From: Candidatus Thalassarchaeaceae archaeon | GTDB taxonomy: Archaea; Thermoplasmatota; Poseidoniia; Poseidoniales; Thalassarchaeaceae | Direction: 5' to 3' | Assembly: GCA_963694325.1 (NCBI GenBank) | Contig: CAVOCV010000002.1 | Location: 1-39,667, forward strand | Length of the DNA stretch: 39,667 bases | Position numbers and translations under genes: made by a program | The notes under the pieces: generated by a model | Told to the model about the DNA's origin: nothing | The model's input: the letters and a program-made list of their open reading frames with translations, nothing else | The model's database searches: none | Shown here: piece by piece, positions 1,948 through 31,660 of the stretch | How the letters are laid out: each line of letters opens with the position of its first letter | Position numbering within the stretch: position 1 is the first letter of the stretch

Positions 1948-4005
1948 ATGGTGAACGAGGAGGTTGCCGACGAGGATGCCGTGCTCGAGGATCTCTCGCC
2001 TGACGTCCCCGAGAAGTCCTCTTTCGGCATGGGCGCCGTCGCCGAGGGCGCGGACGACCCAATCATCGATACGCCGGTTGAAGAATGGCTCTCCGGCATC
2101 GCCTTCGAGTCGACGGCCGACGTGCCGATTCCCGACCGCTTGGTCGATCAGGTGATCGGCCAGGAAGACGCCGCAGTGGTCATCCGCAAGGCGGCTGAAC
2201 AACGGCGCCACGTGATGATGATCGGCGATCCCGGCACCGGTAAGAGCATGCTCGCCAAAGCCATGACCGAACTCATGCCCAGCGAATCCCTTGAGGACAC
2301 CCTGTGCTACCTCAATGACGACGATGAGAACGAACCCCGCATCCGCACCGTGCCAGCGGGCCGAGGTGACCGTCTGGTCAAGGACCTGCGCGGCCAGATG
2401 CGAGAACAGCGCGAGCGCACCAGCCGCACCCTGATGTTTGTCGCATTGCTGATCGGTGGTGTCCTGATTCTGGCCACCATCCAAACCGGTGAGATCATCA
2501 CGCTGCTCTTCGGCATGTTCCTGCTCGCCTTCGGTTACATGTTTATCAAAAACCGATTGGTCTCTGGAGAGGATGCCCGAATTCCGAAACTCCTCGTCAA
2601 GCACAAGCGTGGCGACGCACCCCCCTTCATCGACGCGACCGGCACATTGGCAGGCAGCCTGCTCGGCGACGTGCGCCACGACCCCTTCCAATCCGGCGGC
2701 ATGGAGACCCCGGCCCACGAGCGGGTCGAGGGTGGCGCCATCCACAAGGCGCACGGCGGTGTGCTTTTCATCGATGAAATCAATCTCCTTCGCCTCGAGG
2801 AACAACAGGCCCTCTTGACAGCGATGCAGGAGAAGGCCTTCGCGATCTCTGGCCGATCCGAGCGCAGCAGCGGCGCGCTGACCAAGACCGAAGCCGTGCC
2901 CTGTGACTTCATTCTCATCGCCGCGGGCAATCTCGACGCGGTCGGTCATATGCACCCGGCACTGCGCAGCCGCATCCGCGGCTATGGCTACGAGGTTTAC
3001 GTCAATTCCACGATGCGCGACACGGCGCGAAACCGTCGCCGCCTGATTCGATTCATCGCACAAGAGGTGCGCAATGAGGAGAACAAGAAGACCGGCACGC
3101 CGATTCCCCAGTTCGACCGTTCCGCGGTCGGCGTCATTCTGCGCGAGGCACAACGCCGCGCCGGTCGTCGTGGCAAGCTCACCCTGCGACTGCGTGAACT
3201 CGGTGGACTCGTCCGAATCGCCGGCGATCTCGCCTGTGAAGAAGACGCCACCATCACCTCGGCGCACCACGTCCTCGGTGCGCGTCGCATCGCGCGACCG
3301 CTGGAACAACAAGTTGCAGACCGCATGATCGAACATCGTCAGGATTACTCCCTGCTCGTCAACTCGGGTGAGCGCGTGGGTCGGGTCAATGGCCTGGCAG
3401 TTCTCGGAGCCGACAGTGGCATGTCCGACTTCAGTGGCATCATGCTGCCCGTCGAAGCGCTCGTCACCCCTGCACAGTCCAAGACCGGTCAAGTATTCGC
3501 AACCGGTGGCCTATCCGACCTCGCCAAGGAGAGCGTCACCAACGTCAGTGCAGTCATCAAGAAACTCACTGGCAAGGATGTCGGTGATTTCGACATCCAC
3601 ATCCAATTCGTCGACACCCACGGCGTTGATGGGGACAGCGCCAGCATCACCATCGCCACCGCCATCATCTCCGCCTTCGAAGACATCCCCATCGACCAGA
3701 ATCTGGCGATGACCGGTTCGCTCTCCGTGCGCGGCGAGGTCTTGCCCATCGGAGGGGTCACAGCCAAGATTGAGGCCGCGGCCAAGTCCGGCATCAATCG
3801 CGTCATCATCCCTCGCGCCAACATGAAGGACGTACTCATCGATGATGCCTACAAGGACATGATCGAGGTCATCCCGGTCGACACCCTCGACGAGGTCATG
3901 GAGAGCGCACTCGTCGCCAATGTCAACAAGTCCTCTCTGGTCGAGCGACTCGGTTCGGTGATCGACCGCCTGACACCGAACCCGAGCGGACAACCATCGG
4001 CCTGA
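1948..4005 (+). CDS. lonB: Archaeal membrane-bound Lon protease (LonB)
   Basis: It has Walker [15 protein letters not shown] and two TM helices inserted in the AAA+ domain ([34 protein letters not shown]). Walker B is VLFIDEI, the protease Ser lies in [16 protein letters not shown] and the Lys in [10 protein letters not shown]. The ATG at 1948 is preceded by a GGAG-like sequence; the track start at 1882 is a TTG. Confidence 0.93.
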
Positions 4006-5379: not shown

Positions 5380-6149
5380 TTGAACCAATGCTCGTCTGTC
5401 ATGGCGGGGCTGGCCATGGTGCCAAGGACCAACCCGGGGTCGATGCGGCTGCGGATGCGGGTTGGGAGATTCTCTCAGGGGGAGGTTCAGCGCTCGATGC
5501 TGTTCTCGCTGCGGTTGCGGTGATGGAAGACGACCCCGCACTGAACGCCGGAACGGGCGGGCGAATGCGTTCGGATGGCAGCGTTCAATTGGATGCGGCG
5601 GTCGCGACCAGCGATGGTCGCCTCGGCATCGTCATGGCCCTGGAGGATACACCGAACCCGATTCACGTCGCCGCTGCGCTCCTCGACGAGCCGATACACA
5701 TTCTCGCCGGCGATGGCGCCCGAACCTGGGCGGATGCGCAAGGATTCTCGCGGGCGACAGTGGTCGGTAGCGCCCGACCGGCCGATACCGACACGGTTGG
5801 CTGTGTGGCCATCGATGCGTCCGGCGCGATGGCGGTCGCCAGTAGCACCGGCGGTTGTACCGGCCGGCCCCGCGGCCGGGTCGGAGATACACCCTTGTGG
5901 GGCCCGGGCTTCTGGGTTGACGAACACTGTGTCCTCGCTGCGACCGGCATCGGTGAGGCGATCACTCTGGAGATGCTATGCTACCGCGTCTCTGGCTACG
6001 CAGGTACACTTGAGGAGAAGATGGCCAAAGGTCTGGCCCTATTCGACGAGGACATCGAGGTCGGTCTGATTGGCCTTTCAGTCACCGGGGAAGGATTGGG
6101 TCTTGCGAACACGACCATGCCGTGTGCGATCAGGCGTGCAGATCGTTGA
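5376..6149 (+). CDS. Isoaspartyl peptidase / L-asparaginase (Ntn-hydrolase, asparaginase 2 family)
   Basis: Motifs are HGGAG near the N-terminus, the autoprocessing/nucleophile region DTVGCVAIDASGAMAVASSTGG, and GRVGD. The GTG start overlaps the MFS stop by 4 nt. An alternative ATG lies at 5388. Confidence 0.82.
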   Translation: MIEPMLVCHGGAGHGAKDQPGVDAAADAGWEILSGGGSALDAVLAAVAVMEDDPALNAGTGGRMRSDGSVQLDAAVATSDGRLGIVMALEDTPNPIHVAAALLDEPIHILAGDGARTWADAQGFSRATVVGSARPADTDTVGCVAIDASGAMAVASSTGGCTGRPRGRVGDTPLWGPGFWVDEHCVLAATGIGEAITLEMLCYRVSGYAGTLEEKMAKGLALFDEDIEVGLIGLSVTGEGLGLANTTMPCAIRRADR

Positions 6150-10953: not shown

Positions 10954-13900
10954 ATGGCTTCCTCTCAGCGCGCCCTACGGGCGCGTTCAGGTCAGCGGGC
11001 GAGCGCCCTCGTTCTCCTCCTCATTTTGAGTTCTTTGATGGCCTTCGTGACGCCGGTATCGGCCTCCCCCGCAACCGATGATCTGTCCATCGATGCAGGC
11101 ATCAAACCCATCGTGAATGCCCACTACGACTTCAACGAACTCGTCTTTCCCGAGGTGCTGATTTCGAATGAGTTGACCTCAAATTCGGACAGTCGCCAAA
11201 TCATGGCGGCGATCTGCCCCGGGGATCACACGGCGACGATGACCTGCCCCACCGGGAGTGGCACGACAGATTCGTTGAGCCAGGTCCCCAACCTCGGTCC
11301 CAAGGAATCGGTGACGATCACGTTCAACACCCTCTTCTTCTTCCCCAGTTCACCGGGCGTTCACACCGTCGTCTTCTGGTTCCCCGCCACGGATATTGAC
11401 GATACCGATGACCGGGTGGCTTACACCTTCGATTATGACCAGCCGCTCCGCGATTTGATTGTCAACGGACATGATGTCGATACCTCAGTGATTTACAACA
11501 GCGGCGTGCCGATTCCCGCCAATCTCGACTTGAGAGCCCGTTCATGGCTGGACGGCCTGAACTTCACGACGGGATGGACCATGCATCTGATCGAACCACT
11601 GGTGGCCGAAGCCGAGGATTGTGTGGATTGGCAGAAAAATTTCACCGGAGTCGGCGACGCGTTCGGCAATGAGATTATTCTACACGATGTCACCCACGAC
11701 GATGTATCGGAAACCATACACTACGCCCCCTACGACATGCGGATGAATTTGAGCAATGACTCGATGTGGATCCACGCCGATATCGATGTGCTCGGTAGCG
11801 AATACGGCCAGCCGCATTCCGTTGAGATTGTCGCCATCAACAACGGGACGGAATTATTCACCACTTGGTTCAATTTCACTGGTGATGGTACGCCCCGGAA
11901 TCAGCGCGTTTCCCAGTCCATCGCAGGCATCGACAATGGCACCACCTGTTTCTCTGCCCGGATGACTGTGCCAGACATTCAGGTTGCGAGCGATTCCATG
12001 GATGTCGGTGGAATCAGTGGTTCATTCAACTCCCAACCTCTCGCCTTGCCCAATATCACAGCCCCTTACGCGGGTGAATTTGAGGTTCGAGCAAGCATCT
12101 CTAACACCTTCATCGACCCGAACCCTCACAATGATCAAGTCTCCTTTGACATCATCGTCGATGACACGGTCAACGCTTGGATTCGCGAAGTCGTCCCGGC
12201 CCGTGGCACGACCACCTACGTCGATGTGAATGGCAATACCGTGGTGCGGTTCCCCTACGGTGATGATTCGATACGAATCGTCTCGGGCAACATCGGGTGG
12301 AAACCGGTCCAAGCACTGGTGGAAGTGAACATACTCGAATTCCATTCTCGAGATCTCGCCGCGGGACCCTACACGTGCAACATCTCGCTGCTGCCGGGTG
12401 AGGAGATTCGGTGTGATTTCGACTTCGCCAGCACCGGCCTGTACATTCTCAATGCATCGATCGTGATGACGGACGGTGGCATCGATGTGGACACGAGCGA
12501 CAACTGGTATGAGGTCGGTATCACGGTCGACTTCGGCCTGATCAATCCAGTCATCGCCAATCCGGGACCCAACGCCATCTATGAGACCGGCGACACGATT
12601 CTCGCTGTGGCGGGAGTGAACCCCCTCGCGCCGATGCCCTTGAATTTCACTTGGAAATTGAACTATGTCGAGGTGCTCGGTTATGGGCAGACTGCGAACA
12701 TCACCATGCCGATGGGCGAATGGCTGCTGACCGTCTATGTGACCGATGAGGCGGACAACCTCGAGATTGCCGCCCAATCGGTTCGCATCCTCAATCGTGT
12801 CGAGTTCGCAGCCGCACCCCACATCATGAGCGGTGTCGCCGTCTCGACCGCGCCGATGGAATTGACCTTCGACACGCCCGAGCTTCCACCGACGGGCATC
12901 CTCTATCCGACGGCATTCAACAAAGGCAAGGACCCACTCGTGATGTTCAACGCGTCGATGCGATCCACTCTTGGCGTCCCGATCGAGGTCGACGTCTTCG
13001 AAGCCTGGCTCGATCTCGCGGCTTTCCTTCCGCCCGCGATCAATGCCTCGACAGTCGAAATTCTCCGCATGCCGACCTGGGGCGGTTTGATTCTGGAAGA
13101 GTTTGATTTGGATGGGTATTCTGAAATCTACGAGAATGGGACCCTATACTTCCGCGTCGAAGGTGATGCAGGTGGCGCTTTCATGCTGATCGGGGCACTG
13201 GACCCGGTCGTTGTCAACCCTGGGTCGCTGGATATCGTTCTGCAGAAGGACGGCCAGGTCAAGGTGGTGTGGGACAACGAGGGAGACACCGAAAATCCCT
13301 ACTTCGGTGGATGGCGCCTGTATCGCAAGACGACGCTGACGTTCTCCTATCCCTTCAACTCGCAATCACAGTTCAATTCCGCCACCCTCGGCTATCACGT
13401 GCTGGACCTGGCGCCCGGAACTGAAGAATGGCAGGATCCGAATTTCTACGAGGACGGCACCTGTCTATCCTTCCTCGTCATGTCCCATTCGCGCGGCGGC
13501 GTGGCCGACTGGCATTACGGAAACGTCACCCGTGGCACTTGGAATGAAATCACTCAACGGATGGACGTCCCTGAGATCTGCGTCGATGATCTCTCCCCAT
13601 CGACCGAGGTCATTGGCATGCGTGGCAAGGTGATCTTCGACAACGCCACAAAGAAACACAGCACCAACATCTCTTGGACCTGGCCACCCGTCGGTGATGA
13701 AGGACCCTTGACATGGTCTCTTTACCGGGCCCAATCGACGGTATCAACGGTCGAATTCATGGAACCGCTCGTCTCTGGCTTGGTGGCGGTCCCCGGTGAG
13801 AAGGCTTGGTACGGTGAGACCGAGAGCGCATTGCGAGAATCGGTTCACCTCGAGCAATTCTACTATTACGTCTTGATTCCGTTCGACGCCGTCGAAAATA

Positions 13901-14256
13901 GCGATTTCCTGGTCCGTTCGAACAATGCCGTTGGGTTGACGCTGGATGACCAGTTCTGGGATTACCATCTCCCCCCACCTCCACCGCCGGAACCGGCGCC
14001 TCCAGAAGTGCCGTTTTACGGGCCTTCACCTTGGTATGGGCGCCTGCTCGATGACATGGAGAAGGGTGGATTCCAGCAGGCGGGACTTGCCGCGGCTGGC
14101 GTCGTCCTCATGAATCTCTTCCTGATTCCGCCGATGATCAACAAACTGCGCGCCAAGAAGCGGAAGGTTCGACGAATGAAGGCACGGCAGGCACATCAGC
14201 AAGGCATGCTCGATGCGGATGAATTCGCGGACGACTTCGATGAATTCTTCGACTGA
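10954..14256 (+). CDS. Giant (1100 aa) secreted surface protein with C-terminal TM anchor
   Basis: The signal peptide is MASSQRALRARSGQRASALVLLLILSSLMAFVTPVSA, and many N-x-S/T sequons follow. A proline stalk HLPPPPPPEPAPPEVP precedes the TM helix GLAAAGVVLMNLFLIPPMI, then a KKRKVRRMKAR segment and an acidic tail. The track ORF start at 10726 overlaps the divergent gene. Confidence 0.8.
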   Translation: MASSQRALRARSGQRASALVLLLILSSLMAFVTPVSASPATDDLSIDAGIKPIVNAHYDFNELVFPEVLISNELTSNSDSRQIMAAICPGDHTATMTCPTGSGTTDSLSQVPNLGPKESVTITFNTLFFFPSSPGVHTVVFWFPATDIDDTDDRVAYTFDYDQPLRDLIVNGHDVDTSVIYNSGVPIPANLDLRARSWLDGLNFTTGWTMHLIEPLVAEAEDCVDWQKNFTGVGDAFGNEIILHDVTHDDVSETIHYAPYDMRMNLSNDSMWIHADIDVLGSEYGQPHSVEIVAINNGTELFTTWFNFTGDGTPRNQRVSQSIAGIDNGTTCFSARMTVPDIQVASDSMDVGGISGSFNSQPLALPNITAPYAGEFEVRASISNTFIDPNPHNDQVSFDIIVDDTVNAWIREVVPARGTTTYVDVNGNTVVRFPYGDDSIRIVSGNIGWKPVQALVEVNILEFHSRDLAAGPYTCNISLLPGEEIRCDFDFASTGLYILNASIVMTDGGIDVDTSDNWYEVGITVDFGLINPVIANPGPNAIYETGDTILAVAGVNPLAPMPLNFTWKLNYVEVLGYGQTANITMPMGEWLLTVYVTDEADNLEIAAQSVRILNRVEFAAAPHIMSGVAVSTAPMELTFDTPELPPTGILYPTAFNKGKDPLVMFNASMRSTLGVPIEVDVFEAWLDLAAFLPPAINASTVEILRMPTWGGLILEEFDLDGYSEIYENGTLYFRVEGDAGGAFMLIGALDPVVVNPGSLDIVLQKDGQVKVVWDNEGDTENPYFGGWRLYRKTTLTFSYPFNSQSQFNSATLGYHVLDLAPGTEEWQDPNFYEDGTCLSFLVMSHSRGGVADWHYGNVTRGTWNEITQRMDVPEICVDDLSPSTEVIGMRGKVIFDNATKKHSTNISWTWPPVGDEGPLTWSLYRAQSTVSTVEFMEPLVSGLVAVPGEKAWYGETESALRESVHLEQFYYYVLIPFDAVENSDFLVRSNNAVGLTLDDQFWDYHLPPPPPPEPAPPEVPFYGPSPWYGRLLDDMEKGGFQQAGLAAAGVVLMNLFLIPPMINKLRAKKRKVRRMKARQAHQQGMLDADEFADDFDEFFD

Positions 14257-14328
14257 CAGGTCGGATTCATCGCGGGGAAAAGGCAACCGCTCGGCTTAAG
14301 GCACGGGCTTCGGTGGCGCGGCTGCACA

Positions 14329-14414
14329 GCGACGATCGCATAGCCTGGCCATTGCGCTGGATTGCTAATCCAGTGGGTTCACCCACGGGAGTTCAAATCT
14401 CCCTCGTCGCGCCA
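14329..14414 (+). tRNA. tRNA-Ser (anticodon GCT), class II, CCA encoded
   Basis: The acceptor stem is GCGACGA/TCGTCGC. The anticodon arm is CTGGA-TTGCTAA-TCCAG. The long variable arm is TGGG-TTCA-CCCA, and the T arm is GGGAG-TTCAAAT-CTCCC, followed by discriminator G and CCA. Confidence 0.93.
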
Positions 14415-14635
14415 AAAATCACCAAAAGTCAGCGACAGGGAGTTTGAACTGCGGTCACGCCGAACACCAAAAAGCATCACAGCCGCGTGGCCGCGAAGTT
14501 CAAATCTCGGCGCTCGCCCAAAATAAGCACCAATAAGCGGTGCGAGCGGCTAACCGACTGTGTTCGCTTGGTACGTTCGCGCTTCCTTCGGGCTTCGCCC
14601 TCAGTCCAGCGCTCAGATATCCCTCGTCGCGCCCA
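14415..14635 (+). repeat. Three successive units (14415-14462, 14463-14520, 14521-14635), each ending in a decayed copy of the tRNA-Ser 3' end
   Basis: Unit ends are GGGAGTTTGAACTGCGGTCACGCCG, GAAGTTCAAATCTCGGCGCTCGCCCA and TCCCTCGTCGCGCC(CA). The genuine tRNA end is GGGAGTTCAAATCTCCCTCGTCGCGCCA. Each unit begins with a variant of the tRNA 3' flank AAAATCACCAAAAG. Confidence 0.75.
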
Positions 14636-14665
14636 CCGCGCCGCCACCGCGGCACAACCACAATC

Positions 14666-17584
<2,919 letters not shown>

Positions 17585-17593
17585 TGAATCCCC

Positions 17594-19641
<2,048 letters not shown>

Positions 19642-19849
19642 CGAACTGTTCTTGGGTGGTCCGTGGGGGTTCTTGAATGATTCGACTGGAGTCCCTCTGA
19701 AACCGCTGAAAGTGGACCCCTCGAACCCCGCTGAAACCACCTGAAAATGGCATTTCTGGGGGTTGAATCTGGACCTGAAAGTGATGCCCCCTCGCGTACG
19801 GGTGGGGAATGTATCTCGCGCACCCGCGCCCATGTGCGCTCGCAATACG

Positions 19850-19855
19850 ATTAAA
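19850..19855 (+). promoter_or_regulatory. TATA-like ATTAAA 31 nt upstream of aroD ATG 19881
   Basis: The spacing is the same as at three other genes in the window, which suggests a leaderless mRNA. Confidence 0.4.
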
Positions 19856-19880
19856 CAGGGAGTGCCGGTCGCCGCGCTCG

Positions 19881-20678
19881 ATGAGTTCGACACTGATCTG
19901 CGTCACCCTGCGCGGCCATTCGATCGAGAACATGATCCGAGACGCGAGCCGGGCCACCGCCGCAGGTGCCGACCTGGTCGAAGTGCGCTTCGACAATCTC
20001 TATGTCAACCGCATCGAAGTCGATTCGATCATCACTCAGGATTCCAAGGGTGAGGATGTCGTCGACCGCCAACCGCCGATCATGGATCCCCGACCAATCG
20101 AAGAGATTGATGTCGCCGCTTCGATCGAGGCGCTGAAGGATGGCATCCAGATCCCCGTCATCTTCACCTGCCGCGCCACTGGCGAAGGCGGTCAATTCCA
20201 TGGAGATGAGGCCAGCCGAGCCACGGTTCTCGCCGCCGCAATCGAGAGCGGTGTCAGCTGGGTCGACATCGAGGTCTCGATGGAGGAAGGGCTTCGCAGT
20301 GGGCTGTTGAAGGCCGCAGGAGAAGCGACGAAAATCATCGCATCCGCACACCTTCAAGCCGTCCATTCGACCGAAGAAATCCTCGAGCAAGTGGAAATCC
20401 ACTCTGAAGAGGGCAGTCTCCTCAAATTCTGCTTCACCGGCGTCGAGCACGGCACGAGCCTGCACATCTTCGAGGCCGCACACGCACTGGCGAAGGAAGA
20501 GAAATCCGTGGCCCTGATGGCCAGAGGTCCGGGTGGAGACTGGACCCGCATCCACGCGCCGCTGCTCAAGCAACCGTTGGTCTACACGACCCTCGACCGA
20601 GATTACTCACTCTTCCAGCGCGGCCAGGTCAACATCAACGACCTGCGTACCGCCTGGCGACTGCTCGAATACGAGTGA
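19881..20678 (+). CDS. aroD: 3-dehydroquinate dehydratase, type I
   Basis: It starts MSSTLICVTLRGHS and has GADLVEVRFD. The TIM-barrel AroD pattern includes IIASAH. The track ORF start at 19809 is upstream of the TATA-like box. Confidence 0.8.
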   Translation: MSSTLICVTLRGHSIENMIRDASRATAAGADLVEVRFDNLYVNRIEVDSIITQDSKGEDVVDRQPPIMDPRPIEEIDVAASIEALKDGIQIPVIFTCRATGEGGQFHGDEASRATVLAAAIESGVSWVDIEVSMEEGLRSGLLKAAGEATKIIASAHLQAVHSTEEILEQVEIHSEEGSLLKFCFTGVEHGTSLHIFEAAHALAKEEKSVALMARGPGGDWTRIHAPLLKQPLVYTTLDRDYSLFQRGQVNINDLRTAWRLLEYE

Positions 20679-30638: not shown

Positions 30639-30705
30639 ACACCCGGTGCACAGTGTACAGTGCACAGGTAACAGCAACATCGAATCACCAGAAAGCGATA
30701 CGAGA

Positions 30706-30931
30706 TGTTCGCGCCGGGACCTGAGCGCTGGACTGAGCGAAGCGAAGGAAGCGCGAAATCAAGAAGCAATAGCAGTCGGTGGGGCGCGAACACCGACTCT
30801 TATCGATACATATCGAGGTGCTCGCGCCGGGACCTGAGCGCTGGACTGAGCGAAGCGAAGGAAGCGCGAAATCAAGAAGCAATAGCAGTCGGTGAGGCGC
30901 GAACACCGACTCTTATCGATACATATCGAGG
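30706..30931 (-). repeat. Two tandem 113-bp direct repeats (30706-30818, 30819-30931) immediately 3' of tRNA-Glu, each carrying a copy of the tRNA's terminal 14 nt
   Basis: The period is exactly 113 bp. The two units differ at 2 positions (30708/30821 and 30782/30895). The 14-mer TGCTCGCGCCGGGA (+ strand) occurs at 30932, 30819 and, with 1 mismatch, 30706. A degraded partial third unit extends to about 30655. Confidence 0.9.
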
Positions 30932-31006
30932 TGCTCGCGCCGGGATTCGAACCCGGGTCAGCGGGATGAAAACCCACCATGATGGGCCTGACTACACCAC
31001 GCGAGC
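30932..31006 (-). tRNA. tRNA-Glu (anticodon TTC), CCA not encoded
   Basis: The reverse complement is GCTCGCG-TGGTGTAGTCAGGCCCATCATG-GTGGG-TTTTCAT-CCCGC-TGAC-CCGGG-TTCGAAT-CCCGG-CGCGAGC-A. The D-arm sequence is typical of archaeal tRNA-Glu. Confidence 0.9.
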
Positions 31007-31048
31007 GACAAGCCCCCCGCGGCGAATCGGGTTCATGAGGCGTTCGGT

Positions 31049-31660
31049 TCACTCTTCCTCATCGAGGAGGCCGTCCCACCAGCGCTTCGAGGGGATGAGA
31101 AGGGCGACACCGAGGATGCTGACGAGCACCCAGGCCTTCCAATCGCTGAGGGTATCCATGAGTTCAGCACCCCAGAATCCGATGGCGACCGCCTCGATAC
31201 CGAAGCGCAAGCCGCGGCCGAGAAGTCCGGCCTGAATGAAGCGGCGACGATCCATCTCACCCATGCCTGCAACCCAGGCGAATACCTTGTACGGAATGGG
31301 ACTCAATGCGGCGATGAAGACGCCCATCTCACCATATCTGCGGGTCAGATTCTGCAGTCGCTTGACATGGTGTGAGGCAAATAATCGCTCGGCGACGCTG
31401 AGCCCGAGACGTTGACCGAGCCAATGGCCGACGACCGCACCGGCCACACTGGTGATGGTTGCGACGAACCAGATGGCGAGAATCATGCCCCACGAGCCAT
31501 TTGCGGCGATCAGCATCGGCAGGATGAGTGCCTCGGGCGGAATGGGATGGATGATGGCCTCGGTGAACGAGAGGATGCCGAGGCCGATGAGTCCGAGGCT
31601 GTCCGCCCAATCGACGAAGGCATTCATTGCCGACCAGAAGAAGTCGGGTAAGAGGCCCAT
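31049..31660 (-). CDS. DedA/YqaA-family (SNARE-associated) membrane protein
   Basis: The motif SFTEAIIHPIPPEALILPML and several TM helices are typical of COG1238 YqaA. Confidence 0.75.
   Translation of the reverse strand: MGLLPDFFWSAMNAFVDWADSLGLIGLGILSFTEAIIHPIPPEALILPMLIAANGSWGMILAIWFVATITSVAGAVVGHWLGQRLGLSVAERLFASHHVKRLQNLTRRYGEMGVFIAALSPIPYKVFAWVAGMGEMDRRRFIQAGLLGRGLRFGIEAVAIGFWGAELMDTLSDWKAWVLVSILGVALLIPSKRWWDGLLDEEE

What the first reader, a model, noticed from the sequence alone, without database searches (positions are those of the whole stretch)
14521..14635. The same ~100-nt element sits downstream of two different tRNA genes, each copy capped by the 3' end of its own tRNA
Unit 14521-14635 (tRNA-Ser locus, + strand) aligns with the reverse complement of the 113-bp units at 30706-30818 and 30819-30931 (tRNA-Glu locus), so both lie in the same orientation relative to their tRNA. 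The core TTCGCGCTTCCTTCG / CTTCGC / TCAGTCCAGCGCTCAG (14576-14616) matches the complement of 30721-30757 and 30834-30870. All 37 nt are identical, interrupted only by two 2-nt insertions in the Ser copy. ACCGACTG lies exactly 15 nt upstream of the core in both loci, and an ATAAG...CGGTG segment precedes that. The sequence after the core is locus-specific. It is TCCCTCGTCGCGCC, the last 14 nt of tRNA-Ser, at one locus, and TCCCGGCGCGAGCA, the last 14 nt of tRNA-Glu, at the other. A conserved sequence joined to a target-specific duplication is the geometry expected for an integrative element end (attR-like) or a miniature non-autonomous derivative, not for ordinary tRNA trailers. No integrase is present in the window, and I know of no described element of this kind in this lineage.
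Basis: seen in the sequence. Interest (0 to 1): 0.78.

Follow-up and report, generated by a model that had tools for sequence, protein, structure and literature searches.

The report
Hairpin repeat units anchored to tRNA ends
In one group of uncultured marine archaea, tRNA genes are followed by an inverted copy of their own 3' end and by 0-2 copies of a ~113-bp repeat ending in a direct copy of that end; the repeat number differs between strains, so this looks like a small recombining DNA cassette of an undescribed kind, not the scar of a large integrated element.

Summary
The 37-nt core occurs three times in the window, only downstream of tRNA-Ser and tRNA-Glu, each time followed by 14 nt of the local tRNA 3' end. 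The organism is a Marine Group II (Poseidoniales) archaeon.

New findings:
1. A third tRNA (Gly-UCC) in contigs from the same samples carries the same core with its own 14-nt cap.
2. Every cap has a partner: an inverted copy of the same tRNA end, ~22-25 nt downstream of each direct copy. It co-varies with the tRNA across three tRNAs and three related lineages.
3. Unit number varies between assemblies: Gly 0.5 or 1.5 units; Glu 1, 1.4 or 2.
4. A related lineage (73% identity in the neighbouring gene) has a homologous unit. Its core differs at 5 of 38 positions, including one compensatory U-A to C-G change.
5. No integrase, transposase, Cas1 or full-length element was found.

Best reading (about 0.4): a non-autonomous, cargo-less cassette that expands, contracts and spreads between tRNA trailers by recombination at duplicated tRNA ends. 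Main rival (about 0.3): a structured RNA co-transcribed with the tRNA.

The parts
14329..14414 (+). tRNA-Ser(GCU); its last 14 nt before the terminal A (14400-14413, TCCCTCGTCGCGCC) are direct-repeat copy 1
   Evidence: ARAGORN; Rfam 53.5 bits; sequence
14432..14450 (+). Inverted copy of tRNA-Ser positions 62-82 (acceptor 3' strand, T-stem and T-loop; 19 of 21 matched with two 1-nt gaps). It pairs with the tRNA 3' end across an 18-nt A-rich loop.
   Evidence: Local alignment; fold of 14398-14524 gives -46.5 kcal/mol, z = -5.35
14443..14504 (+). Second long hairpin: arms TTTGAACTGCGGTCACGC and GCGTGGCCGCGAAGTTCAAA, with an A-rich loop
   Evidence: Fold; inverted repeat I3
14497..14523 (+). Diverged direct copy of the tRNA-Ser 3' region (AGTTCAAATCTCGGCGCTCGCCCAAAA, 74% to the tRNA). 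It marks the boundary between a 107-nt first unit and a 113-nt second unit.
   Evidence: the repeat finder family D1, spacing 107 and 113
14539..14550 (+). Inverted acceptor-like segment GGTGCGAGCGGC of the second Ser unit. It is complementary to the preceding pseudo-3' end (9 of 12) and to the final cap plus flank (10 of 12).
   Evidence: Sequence; pair counts
14551..14575 (+). TAACCGA motif plus an 18-nt spacer
   Evidence: Alignments
14576..14616 (+). Conserved core hairpin, Ser version, with GG/CC insertions that add two base pairs
14620..14633 (+). Direct-repeat copy 2 of the tRNA-Ser 3' end (14 of 14; 19 of 21 if extended into a T-loop-like TCAGATA)
30930..31006 (-). tRNA-Glu(UUC); 30932-30945 is direct-repeat copy 1 (TCCCGGCGCGAGCA on the tRNA strand)
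30819..30931 (-). tRNA-proximal 113-bp unit: loop, inverted copy (30896-30907), TCACCGA, spacer, core (30833-30870), direct copy (30819-30832)
   Evidence: TRF; the repeat finder; alignment
30706..30818 (-). Distal 113-bp unit: inverted copy 30783-30794, core 30720-30757, direct copy 30706-30719 with GAACA. This cap is the exact complement of the inverted copy.
30680..30705 (-). Flank after the array (TCTCGTATCGCTTTCTGGTGATTCGA on the tRNA strand). By eye it resembles a decayed loop plus inverted copy. Weak.
   Evidence: Sequence; alignment test not significant

Best explanation
The finding is one member of a small family of composite DNA repeats anchored to tRNA 3' ends. The family is specific to one clade of Marine Group II (Thalassarchaeaceae-like) archaea.

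Shown. Each tRNA gene examined (Ser-GCU, Glu-UUC, Gly-UCC) is followed after about 18-25 nt by an inverted copy of its own last 10-13 nt; the inverted copy is longer at the Ser locus and in one relative. Together these form a strong palindrome. Behind this come 0-2 units of 112/113 bp. Each unit has a 56-nt segment shared between tRNAs (spacer plus a roughly 30-nt hairpin), followed by a direct copy of the tRNA end and of the palindromic trailer.

Inferred. The unit is a non-autonomous, cargo-less cassette, in effect nothing but attachment-site-like DNA. It gains and loses copies by recombination between the duplicated tRNA-end blocks. It has spread between tRNA trailers either by site-specific recombination at the T-loop/3'-end region or by microhomology-guided copying (TCACCGA on one side, TCCC on the other). 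The hairpin core would be the part recognised by a trans-acting protein encoded elsewhere. That would explain why the core is identical in all copies of one population yet differs in the related lineage. It is not the right end of a large integrated element.
For: Same core behind three different tRNAs, each with its own 14-nt cap and its own inverted copy. In about 1.1 Mb of fetched loci the spacer+core occurs only at tRNA 3' ends. Copy number differs between independent assemblies. At Gly, 0.5 unit in L125 and L129 versus 1.5 units in seven contigs, differing by exactly 112 nt between two identical 56-nt blocks. At Glu, 1 unit (L001, L003, L007), 1.4 units (L002) and 2 units (window, L006). 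In two-unit Glu alleles the tRNA-proximal cap equals the tRNA (GAGCA), while the most distal cap has diverged (GAACA). This is compatible with addition at the tRNA side. The core is 100% identical at the Ser, Glu and Gly loci while the neighbouring spacers are only about 55-80% identical. The homologous Gly unit of the 73%-identity relative differs at 5 of 38 core positions. That is the pattern of a repeat family kept uniform by turnover, conversion or a shared trans factor. Contigs and scaffolds often break or carry N-gaps exactly at the units (L004, L005, L123, L133). Poseidoniales are known hosts of tRNA-adjacent integrating elements with integrases (bioRxiv 10.1101/2025.08.03.668216).
Against: No recombinase, transposase or Cas1 is encoded in the window or in the 20-kb Gly loci. 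No full-length or free element was found in IMG/VR, GTDB genomes, phage or plasmid records. A duplex circle of 112-113 bp is a poor recombination substrate. The core-less allele is explained equally well by plain homologous deletion between 56-nt repeats, and copy-number differences could in part be assembly collapse. The palindromic trailer exists without any core in relatives and co-varies with the tRNA, and the core shows compensatory changes. Both fit a selected RNA or DNA structure as well as a selfish element. All three tRNAs examined carry it. How both a direct and an inverted copy of each new tRNA end arise is not explained.
Confidence: 0.4

Rival explanations
1. A functional structured RNA made from the tRNA trailer. 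The tRNA and the units are co-transcribed. The inverted copy and the next direct copy close a roughly 90-nt RNA (a 10-12 bp helix mimicking the acceptor/T-stem stack) around a U-rich stretch and the core hairpin. This RNA could act as a processed small RNA. It could instead act as a terminator or insulator protecting the convergent downstream gene, or as an 'anti-acceptor' regulator of tRNA maturation.
For: The inverted-copy:direct-copy helix is 93% paired, with 5 covarying pairs across Glu, Gly and Ser units. The core shows a U-A to C-G double change, and the Ser insertions add two G-C pairs. The closed unit folds with z = -4.6 (ours) and -3.5 (relative); the tRNA-end/inverted-copy hairpins fold with z = -4.1 to -7.1. 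The core and part of the spacer are conserved at 87-89% identity between lineages whose neighbouring proteins are only about 70% identical. The units always have the tRNA's orientation and travel with promoter and tRNA when the block is flipped. All three tRNAs have a convergent downstream gene. Two mismatches in the helices are G.U on the tRNA-sense strand.
Against: A functional helix has no need to copy the neighbouring tRNA's end, so the match points to a DNA duplication process. Unit number, including zero cores, varies within the population, and a related lineage has none at tRNA-Glu, so the core is dispensable. One helix mismatch (L146) is C.A on the sense strand. No Rfam family matches: no ribozyme, C/D box or tRNA-like hit. 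No expression data are available. The predicted hairpin competes with the tRNA's own acceptor stem.
Confidence: 0.3
2. Neutral by-product. Local tandem duplication and quasi-palindrome 'correction' by replication slippage or template switching occur at highly transcribed tRNA genes. Occasional ectopic gene conversion then homogenises the copies. There is no dedicated machinery and no function.
For: Arrays end at arbitrary phases (0.5, 1.1, 1.4, 1.5, 2.1 units). A distant Poseidoniales MAG has an unrelated 168-bp, two-copy array capped by 22 nt of tRNA-Ser and containing an inverted T-arm piece, so the process recurs with different sequences. The tRNA-Glu trailer of relative L140 continues as an inverted, decayed copy of tRNA positions 38-56 (15 of 19, p = 0.036). 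That suggests an old inverted partial duplication of the gene.
Against: It does not explain how the same 56-nt segment reached three unlinked tRNA loci. It does not explain why a 37-nt core stays identical while adjacent DNA diverges. It does not explain the conservation with a compensatory change across lineages.
Confidence: 0.1
3. Remnant (attR side plus attL side) of a large tRNA-integrating provirus or plasmid that lost its interior by deletion.
For: Direct repeats of the tRNA 3' end start at the T-loop/T-stem border, a classical crossover sublocation (own knowledge: Williams 2002, not read here). Integrase-bearing elements integrate next to tRNAs in Poseidoniales.
Against: The junction between 'left arm' and 'right arm' is the same at three tRNAs and in a second lineage (ACCGA plus about 18-19 nt plus core). 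Independent deletions would not give that. No full-length relative was found. The core is under constraint.
Confidence: 0.08
4. Integration of a small single-stranded DNA through a folded hairpin that mimics the target, as in CTX phage at dif or integron attC sites. Direct copy, loop and inverted copy would be the folded attachment site, and the core hairpin a rolling-circle origin.
For: The order direct copy - loop - inverted copy - body - direct copy is what hairpin-mediated single-strand integration leaves behind (own knowledge of CTX phage, Val et al. 2005, not read here). Tandem arrays fit. The apex of the core on the opposite strand is GCGAAGC, a known very stable DNA mini-hairpin (own knowledge).
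Against: No Rep/HUH gene, no free form, and a 113-nt genome with no coding capacity. The inverted copy exists in relatives without any core.
Confidence: 0.07
5. Casposon- or CRISPR-like polar insertion. An integrase reads the T-loop as a 'leader', inserts DNA just after it, and duplicates a fixed 14 nt.
For: The cap is 14 nt at Ser and Glu and starts at the T-loop border. The newest Glu cap is tRNA-proximal. The A. boonei casposase makes a 15-bp duplication overlapping a tRNA-Pro 3' end, needs the T-loop segment upstream, and tandem casposon arrays are known (PMC5137440).
Against: The unit has no terminal inverted repeats (only CCT...AGG). No Cas1 or PolB is present. The inserted DNA is the same every time. 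At Gly the repeated block is 56 nt. The casposon duplication overlaps the tRNA by only 5 bp.
Confidence: 0.05

Closest known systems
Cis-mobilisable, att-flanked mini-elements and tandem 'accretion' at tRNA-type integration sites (CIMEs of Streptococcus ICEs; tandem remnant arrays of tycheposons in Prochlorococcus). Recalled from my own knowledge; only the tycheposon abstract was seen.
   Same: Non-coding DNA bounded by direct repeats of a tRNA 3' segment, arranged in tandem next to an intact tRNA, with copy number varying between strains and no recombinase of its own.
   Different: The units are only 112-113 bp, versus kilobases. Each carries an inverted copy of the tRNA end. The same unit occurs at three tRNAs with three different ends. 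No helper element or integrase has been identified. The core is conserved with compensatory changes.
Casposon tandem arrays at tRNA 3' ends (A. boonei tRNA-Pro, Methanosarcina; PMC5137440)
   Same: Archaeal; the target lies next to the T-loop of a tRNA gene; a duplication of 14-15 nt; polar tandem insertion.
   Different: No terminal inverted repeats, no Cas1 or PolB, and a unit size of about 100 nt. The duplicated segment lies inside the tRNA instead of mostly beyond it.
Hairpin-mediated integration (CTX phage attP at dif; integron attC cassettes). Own knowledge.
   Same: The order direct copy - loop - inverted copy - body - direct copy; tandem arrays; dependence on a folded imperfect palindrome.
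   Different: The target is a tRNA end, not dif or attI. There is no evidence of a single-stranded form or of Xer, IntI or Rep proteins. The palindrome is also present without the body.
REP/BIME-type extragenic hairpin repeats kept uniform within a species by a dedicated HUH enzyme (own knowledge)
   Same: A short hairpin that is identical within a genome, differs between related species, and lies at 3' ends of transcription units.
   Different: So far seen only behind tRNA genes, joined to copies of the tRNA end; no RAYT-like gene is known here.
Circularly permuted tmRNA/tRNA genes (weak Rfam hit RF04321, 15 bits, E = 0.45)
   Same: The order T-arm, acceptor 3' strand, loop, then a 5'-acceptor-like strand.
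   Different: The score is far below the gathering threshold of 47 and is driven by the real tRNA T-arm. There is no coding or tRNA body downstream, and archaea lack tmRNA.

Membership tests
tRNA-integrating element (tyrosine recombinase) att site or remnant | Inserted DNA bounded by direct repeats of the tRNA 3' segment, with an intact tRNA on one side | tested here: met
   14-nt caps at Ser, Glu and Gly; 22 nt in L070
tRNA-integrating element (tyrosine recombinase) att site or remnant | An integrase encoded in the element, or a full-length relative with the same arms | tested here: not met
   No recombinase Pfam hit on any called gene of the window or the Gly loci. Core and arm patterns are absent from IMG/VR and GTDB genomes. 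The collections are incomplete for this clade.
tRNA-integrating element (tyrosine recombinase) att site or remnant | An empty site in a related strain that lacks all element DNA | tested here: inconclusive
   Gly alleles L125 and L129 lack the spacer, core and second cap but keep the loop and inverted copy. More distant relatives lack everything (L134, L137, L017, L018).
Casposon | Cas1-solo and PolB genes, terminal inverted repeats, 14-15 bp target duplication | tested here: not met
   The duplication length is compatible (14 nt). No terminal inverted repeats beyond 3 nt (sequence). No Cas1 or PolB among the called genes.
MITE | Terminal inverted repeats recognised by a transposase, plus a short fixed target duplication | tested here: not met
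   The only inverted repeats are the tRNA-specific copies, and they differ at each tRNA.
CRISPR array | Identical repeats separated by different spacers | tested here: not met
   The roughly 99-nt intervals between the 14-nt caps are the same sequence.
Known RNA families (tRNA-like, self-cleaving ribozymes, C/D or H/ACA guides) | A covariance-model match at or near the gathering score | tested here: not met
   Only the two real tRNAs pass. The best hits on the trailer or unit DNA are tmRNA_permuted (15.1 bits, threshold 47) and, covering part of the unit together with the tRNA, YrlA (13 bits, threshold 69). No C box or K-turn found by inspection.
Hairpin-mediated ssDNA integration (CTX phage / attC type) | Integrated order: site - loop - inverted site - body - site | tested here: met
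Hairpin-mediated ssDNA integration (CTX phage / attC type) | A single-stranded circular form and a Rep or Xer-type enzyme | not testable with these tools
   No read-level or ssDNA library data. No such gene in the fetched loci.

The most novel reading that the evidence does not exclude
A new kind of tRNA-anchored genetic element: a cargo-less hairpin cassette whose built-in inverted copy of the tRNA 3' end acts as a target mimic or guide, either as folded single-stranded DNA or as RNA. A trans-acting enzyme could then install and amplify the cassette behind any tRNA whose end it has copied. The same chemistry could account for the in-place flipping of promoter-tRNA-trailer blocks seen between lineages.
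Probability: 0.12. Interest if true: 0.85.

Novelty: new variant of a known kind. Interest (0 to 1): 0.6.

Why it matters
Marine Group II archaea are among the most abundant archaea in the surface ocean. They remain uncultured, and their mobile DNA and small RNAs are almost unknown. If the mobile reading holds, this would be the smallest tRNA-targeted cassette described. Its anatomy (direct plus inverted copy of the target, and a shared hairpin) does not match integrase att remnants, casposons, MITEs or REPs. It would also give a handle on how tRNA loci in these genomes are rearranged. If the RNA reading holds, it would be a new class of tRNA-trailer RNA whose closing helix imitates the acceptor arm of its neighbour. 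There is also a practical point. These repeats break assemblies at tRNA genes and generate spurious ORF calls, which may help explain why the tRNA regions of this clade were not found in reference MAGs.

Tried and rejected
- Rfam at gathering and at E<=10: no family for the unit.
- Inspection for hammerhead, C/D box, H/ACA and K-turn motifs. CUGA boxes exist on the opposite strand, but there is no C box and the bulge geometry is wrong.
- Casposon or MITE ends: no terminal inverted repeats.
- Exact-pattern scans:
  - Core in GTDB genomes: 0 hits.
  - Core in IMG/VR: 0 hits.
  - Core followed by a pyrimidine in JGI metagenome contigs: 0 hits.
  - Relaxed core: one true new locus (L101) plus four chance or coding hits.
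  - Left-arm patterns and tRNA-end patterns in IMG/VR: nothing relevant; two low-GC viral tRNA genes.
  - L070 unit hairpin in GTDB: only L070 itself.
  - Loop motif in GTDB: one chance hit.
- BLAST against phage and plasmid records: no meaningful hit.
- Protein search with six-frame translations of the unit, hoping to catch spurious ORFs at other loci: only the window's own ORF.
- Extending the window by end genes: two look-ups failed because the start codons differed. A third gave 6 kb more sequence with no further tRNA.
- An inverted copy of the tRNA end upstream of the promoter, as a driver of tRNA flipping: not significant (p = 0.06-0.99).
- Flanks as decayed units: not significant.
- Trailer after the inverted copy as an inverted tRNA 5' end (Gly): 9 of 10 matched but p = 0.13.
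- Loop inversion between our tRNA-Glu and L140: abandoned, because the loop is itself palindromic (TATCGATA) and aligns in both orientations.
- Complementarity of the core to the tRNA-Ser anticodon stem (I2): judged to be chance.
- Origin of the inverted copy from mature tRNA (primer-binding-site idea): it matches the genomic trailer bases as well as it matches CCA, so this is uninformative.

Full report
**Check of the observation.**
ARAGORN and Rfam agree on two tRNA genes: tRNA-Ser(GCU) at 14329-14414 (+) and tRNA-Glu(UUC) at 30930-31006 (-). The 17-mer CTCAGTCCAGCGCTCAG occurs three times, all downstream of these tRNAs and in the tRNA's orientation; no shuffle out of 100 gave three matches. 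TRF reports a 113-bp repeat, 2.2 copies, 97% matches, at 30701-30945. BLAST aligns the Ser core to the Glu cores with no mismatch and two gaps. The 14-nt caps, the ACCGACTG motif 15 nt upstream of the core, and the ATAAG...CGGTG segment are all as described.

**Host.**
Gene content includes gyrAB, ThiS, PIN_6, KaiC-like DUF7125 and a large PKD protein. The contigs come from marine metagenomes. GyrA is at best 65-78% identical to Poseidoniales/Thalassarchaeaceae MAGs. Together these place the window in Marine Group II archaea, with no same-species genome among the GTDB representatives.

- Each direct copy of a tRNA end is followed, after about 22-25 nt, by an inverted copy of the same end.
  - Glu: GGCGCGAGCACC ... 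GGTGTTCGCGCC.
  - Gly: GTCACCCGCAC ... GTGCGGGTGAC.
  - Ser: the tRNA end pairs with GCGAC-AGGGAG, which continues as an inverted T-loop (19 of 21).
- The Ser locus is itself a two-unit array. Three 27-nt tRNA-3'-like segments are spaced 107 and 113 nt apart. Its first unit folds into two long hairpins (z = -5.35).
- The two 2-nt insertions in the Ser core are GG and CC. They are placed symmetrically and extend the apical stem from 2 to 4 bp.
- A unit therefore reads: direct copy (14 nt), loop (about 22-25 nt), inverted copy (10-12 nt), TCACCGA, spacer (18-19 nt), core hairpin, then the next direct copy.

**More copies.**
One relaxed scan of metagenome contigs found a third locus, L101. There, tRNA-Gly(UCC) is followed by the same unit with a 100% identical core, the cap TCCCGTCACCCGCA and the inverted copy TGCGGGTGAC. 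The contigs come from the same samples and have similar GC content, so they probably belong to the same population; this is not proven. In all fetched loci (about 1.1 Mb, of which roughly 70 kb, non-redundant, comes from this population) the spacer+core occurs only behind tRNAs. All three tRNAs seen in this population carry it.

**Population variation.**
- Glu locus: contigs encoding the identical neighbouring protein carry one unit (L001, L003, L007), two units (window, L006), or one unit plus a truncated second (L002). Two further contigs end inside the repeat.
- Gly locus: seven contigs carry 1.5 units. Two (L125, L129) carry 0.5 unit, that is tRNA, loop, inverted copy and TCACCGA, then flank. 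One scaffold has an N-gap there.
- The two Gly alleles differ by exactly 112 nt. This is a 56-nt unique part (spacer plus core) plus a second copy of a 56-nt block (cap, loop, inverted copy, TCACCGA).
- The Ser locus is identical in seven contigs.
- Caveat: de Bruijn assemblies can collapse such repeats, so read-level confirmation is needed.

**Relatives.**
- tRNA-Gly locus. Synteny is conserved (ABC transporter, tRNA-Gly, small ORF, MFS, PKS).
  - The 73%-identity lineage (L131, L132) has a homologous unit. The cap and inverted copy are the same as ours, the spacer is similar (16 of 18 to our Glu spacer), and the core differs at 5 of 38 positions.
  - Two of those differences convert a U-A pair into C-G.
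  - In that lineage the whole promoter-tRNA-unit block lies in the opposite orientation between the same neighbours.
  - The 66% and 63% lineages have no core and no inverted copy, and again differ from each other in tRNA orientation.
- tRNA-Glu locus.
  - The 71-72% lineage (L140, L150) has a different acceptor and T-stem. Its inverted copy matches its own end perfectly (TGCTCGCATCGG, 12 of 12).
  - The DNA that follows is an inverted, decayed copy of tRNA positions 38-56 (15 of 19, p = 0.036). There is no core and no second cap.
  - The 69% lineage (L146) has an 11-of-12 inverted copy.
- tRNA-Ser locus. In the more distant relatives the tRNA is co-directional with gyrA and abuts the next gene with nothing in between. 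In the window it is flipped and followed by about 220 nt of repeats.
- A systematic score of tRNA end against downstream complement is 8-13 in this clade, against 3-6 (background) at 19 other Poseidoniales tRNA loci.
- A distant MAG (L070) has an unrelated array of two 168-bp units capped by 22 nt of tRNA-Ser. It also contains an inverted T-arm piece, so the process recurs with other sequences.

**Structure.**
On an alignment of five units, 96% of cells in the proposed structure form standard pairs. Six pairs change on both sides, and sliding the partners by 1-3 columns drops pairing to 19-49%. The helix between inverted and direct copies accounts for five of these covarying pairs, and the core for one. 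The closed units fold with z = -4.6 and -3.5. The tRNA-end/inverted-copy hairpins fold with z = -4.1 and -7.1. These data show that complementarity is maintained. They do not show whether this happens in RNA, in single-stranded DNA, or through arm-to-arm correction of a DNA palindrome. Wobble evidence is mixed: two G.U pairs on the sense strand against one C.A.

**Interpretation.**
The 14-nt cap is the best-preserved part of a larger repeated block, so the simple picture of a conserved end joined to a target duplication is incomplete. Three points argue against a decayed end of a large integrated element:
- The junction between the two 'arms' is the same at three tRNAs and in two lineages.
- The core is constrained.
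- No full-length relative or recombinase was found.

Three points argue for a DNA-level, recombination-driven cassette:
- The caps and inverted copies are copies of the neighbouring tRNA, which a purely functional helix would not require.
- Copy number is polymorphic, including loss of the core.
- Cores are identical within the population but diverged between lineages.

I therefore favour, at about 0.4, a non-autonomous cassette made only of attachment-site-like DNA. It would turn over by recombination at the duplicated tRNA-end blocks and would have spread between tRNA trailers. The core hairpin would be the likely recognition element for a factor encoded elsewhere.

The strongest rival, at about 0.3, is a co-transcribed structured trailer RNA. 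It could be a small RNA closed by an acceptor-like helix, or a terminator or insulator in front of the convergent downstream gene. This reading is supported by the conservation, the covariation and the fixed orientation. It is weakened by the dispensability of the core and by the absence of any reason to copy the neighbour's end.

Minor rivals are a neutral slippage and conversion product (0.1), a deletion remnant of a large element (0.08), hairpin-mediated single-strand integration (0.07) and casposon-like polar insertion (0.05; compare PMC5137440).

**Comparison with known systems.**
The closest analogues are att-flanked non-autonomous elements that accrete in tandem at tRNA sites, casposon arrays at tRNA ends, and hairpin attachment sites of the CTX phage or attC type. 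None shares the full anatomy, and the defining enzymes of each were looked for and not found. No paper found in three literature searches describes such units in Poseidoniales. One preprint reports integrase-bearing elements next to Poseidoniales tRNAs.

**Verdict.**
The feature is real and statistically solid. It is richer than first described, population-variable, and conserved within a clade. The mechanism is unresolved. I rate it as a new variant of a known kind (tRNA-anchored repeat or integration cassettes), with interest 0.6.

Noticed in passing
window 14257-14660 versus L017, L018, L069 (about 5750-5950); L121 9652-9723 versus L131 2558-2629, L134, L137: The promoter-tRNA(-trailer) block lies in opposite orientations between the same flanking genes in different lineages, at both the tRNA-Ser and tRNA-Gly loci. 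A conserved promoter-like motif, GGACCGAATCGGATAAGA, travels with tRNA-Gly. No flanking inverted repeat that could drive the inversion was statistically supported.
   Followed up: partly
L070 5758-6600 (CAYFFQ010000001.1): A distant Poseidoniales MAG has two identical 168-bp units behind tRNA-Ser. Each is capped by 22 nt of the tRNA end and contains an inverted T-arm fragment. About 500 bp of further 57-184-bp repeat families follow. The unit hairpin occurs nowhere else in the GTDB genomes.
   Followed up: partly
L131 about 2740-2790 (tRNA-distal end of the unit): There are three degenerate copies of the 10-nt tRNA-Gly end, GTCACCC(G/C/A)(C/T)A, spaced 16 nt apart. They form a mini-repeat of the cap itself.
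   Followed up: no
window 30705-31235 (+): A 176-aa ORF reads through both units and the antisense of tRNA-Glu. It has been called as a gene in public assemblies (cluster P0001, 6 members; also 66-aa and 177-aa calls). It is almost certainly a spurious ORF created by the repeats.
   Followed up: partly
window 30646-30673: A composite near-palindrome, GTGCACAGTGTACAGTGCACAGGTAACA (GTGCAC and TGTACA half-sites), sits between the Glu array and the stop codon of the Smr-like gene.
   Followed up: no
window 30742-30748 and 14593-14599 (opposite strand of the core apex): On the strand opposite to the tRNA, the apex of the core reads GCGAAGC. I recall this as an unusually stable DNA mini-hairpin found at some ssDNA phage origins (own knowledge, not checked in the literature here).
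   Followed up: no
L146/L147 about 3330-3460: In the 69%-identity lineage, about 230 nt downstream of the tRNA-Glu trailer encode a 44-aa CxxC...CxxC zinc-ribbon ORF. It is preceded by a GACCGAATGG motif that resembles the tRNA promoter element.
   Followed up: no
L122-L129 about 12120-20400: A PKS/PUFA-synthase-like gene of about 2750 aa lies near tRNA-Gly, together with a phosphopantetheinyl transferase gene. In L121 the gene call is split by a 100-N scaffold gap.
   Followed up: no
L004, L005, L007, L101, L123, L133: Contigs end, or scaffolds carry N-gaps, exactly at the units. Many relatives of the VTT gene sit on contigs of 1-2 kb. The repeats probably fragment assemblies at tRNA loci in this clade.
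   Followed up: partly
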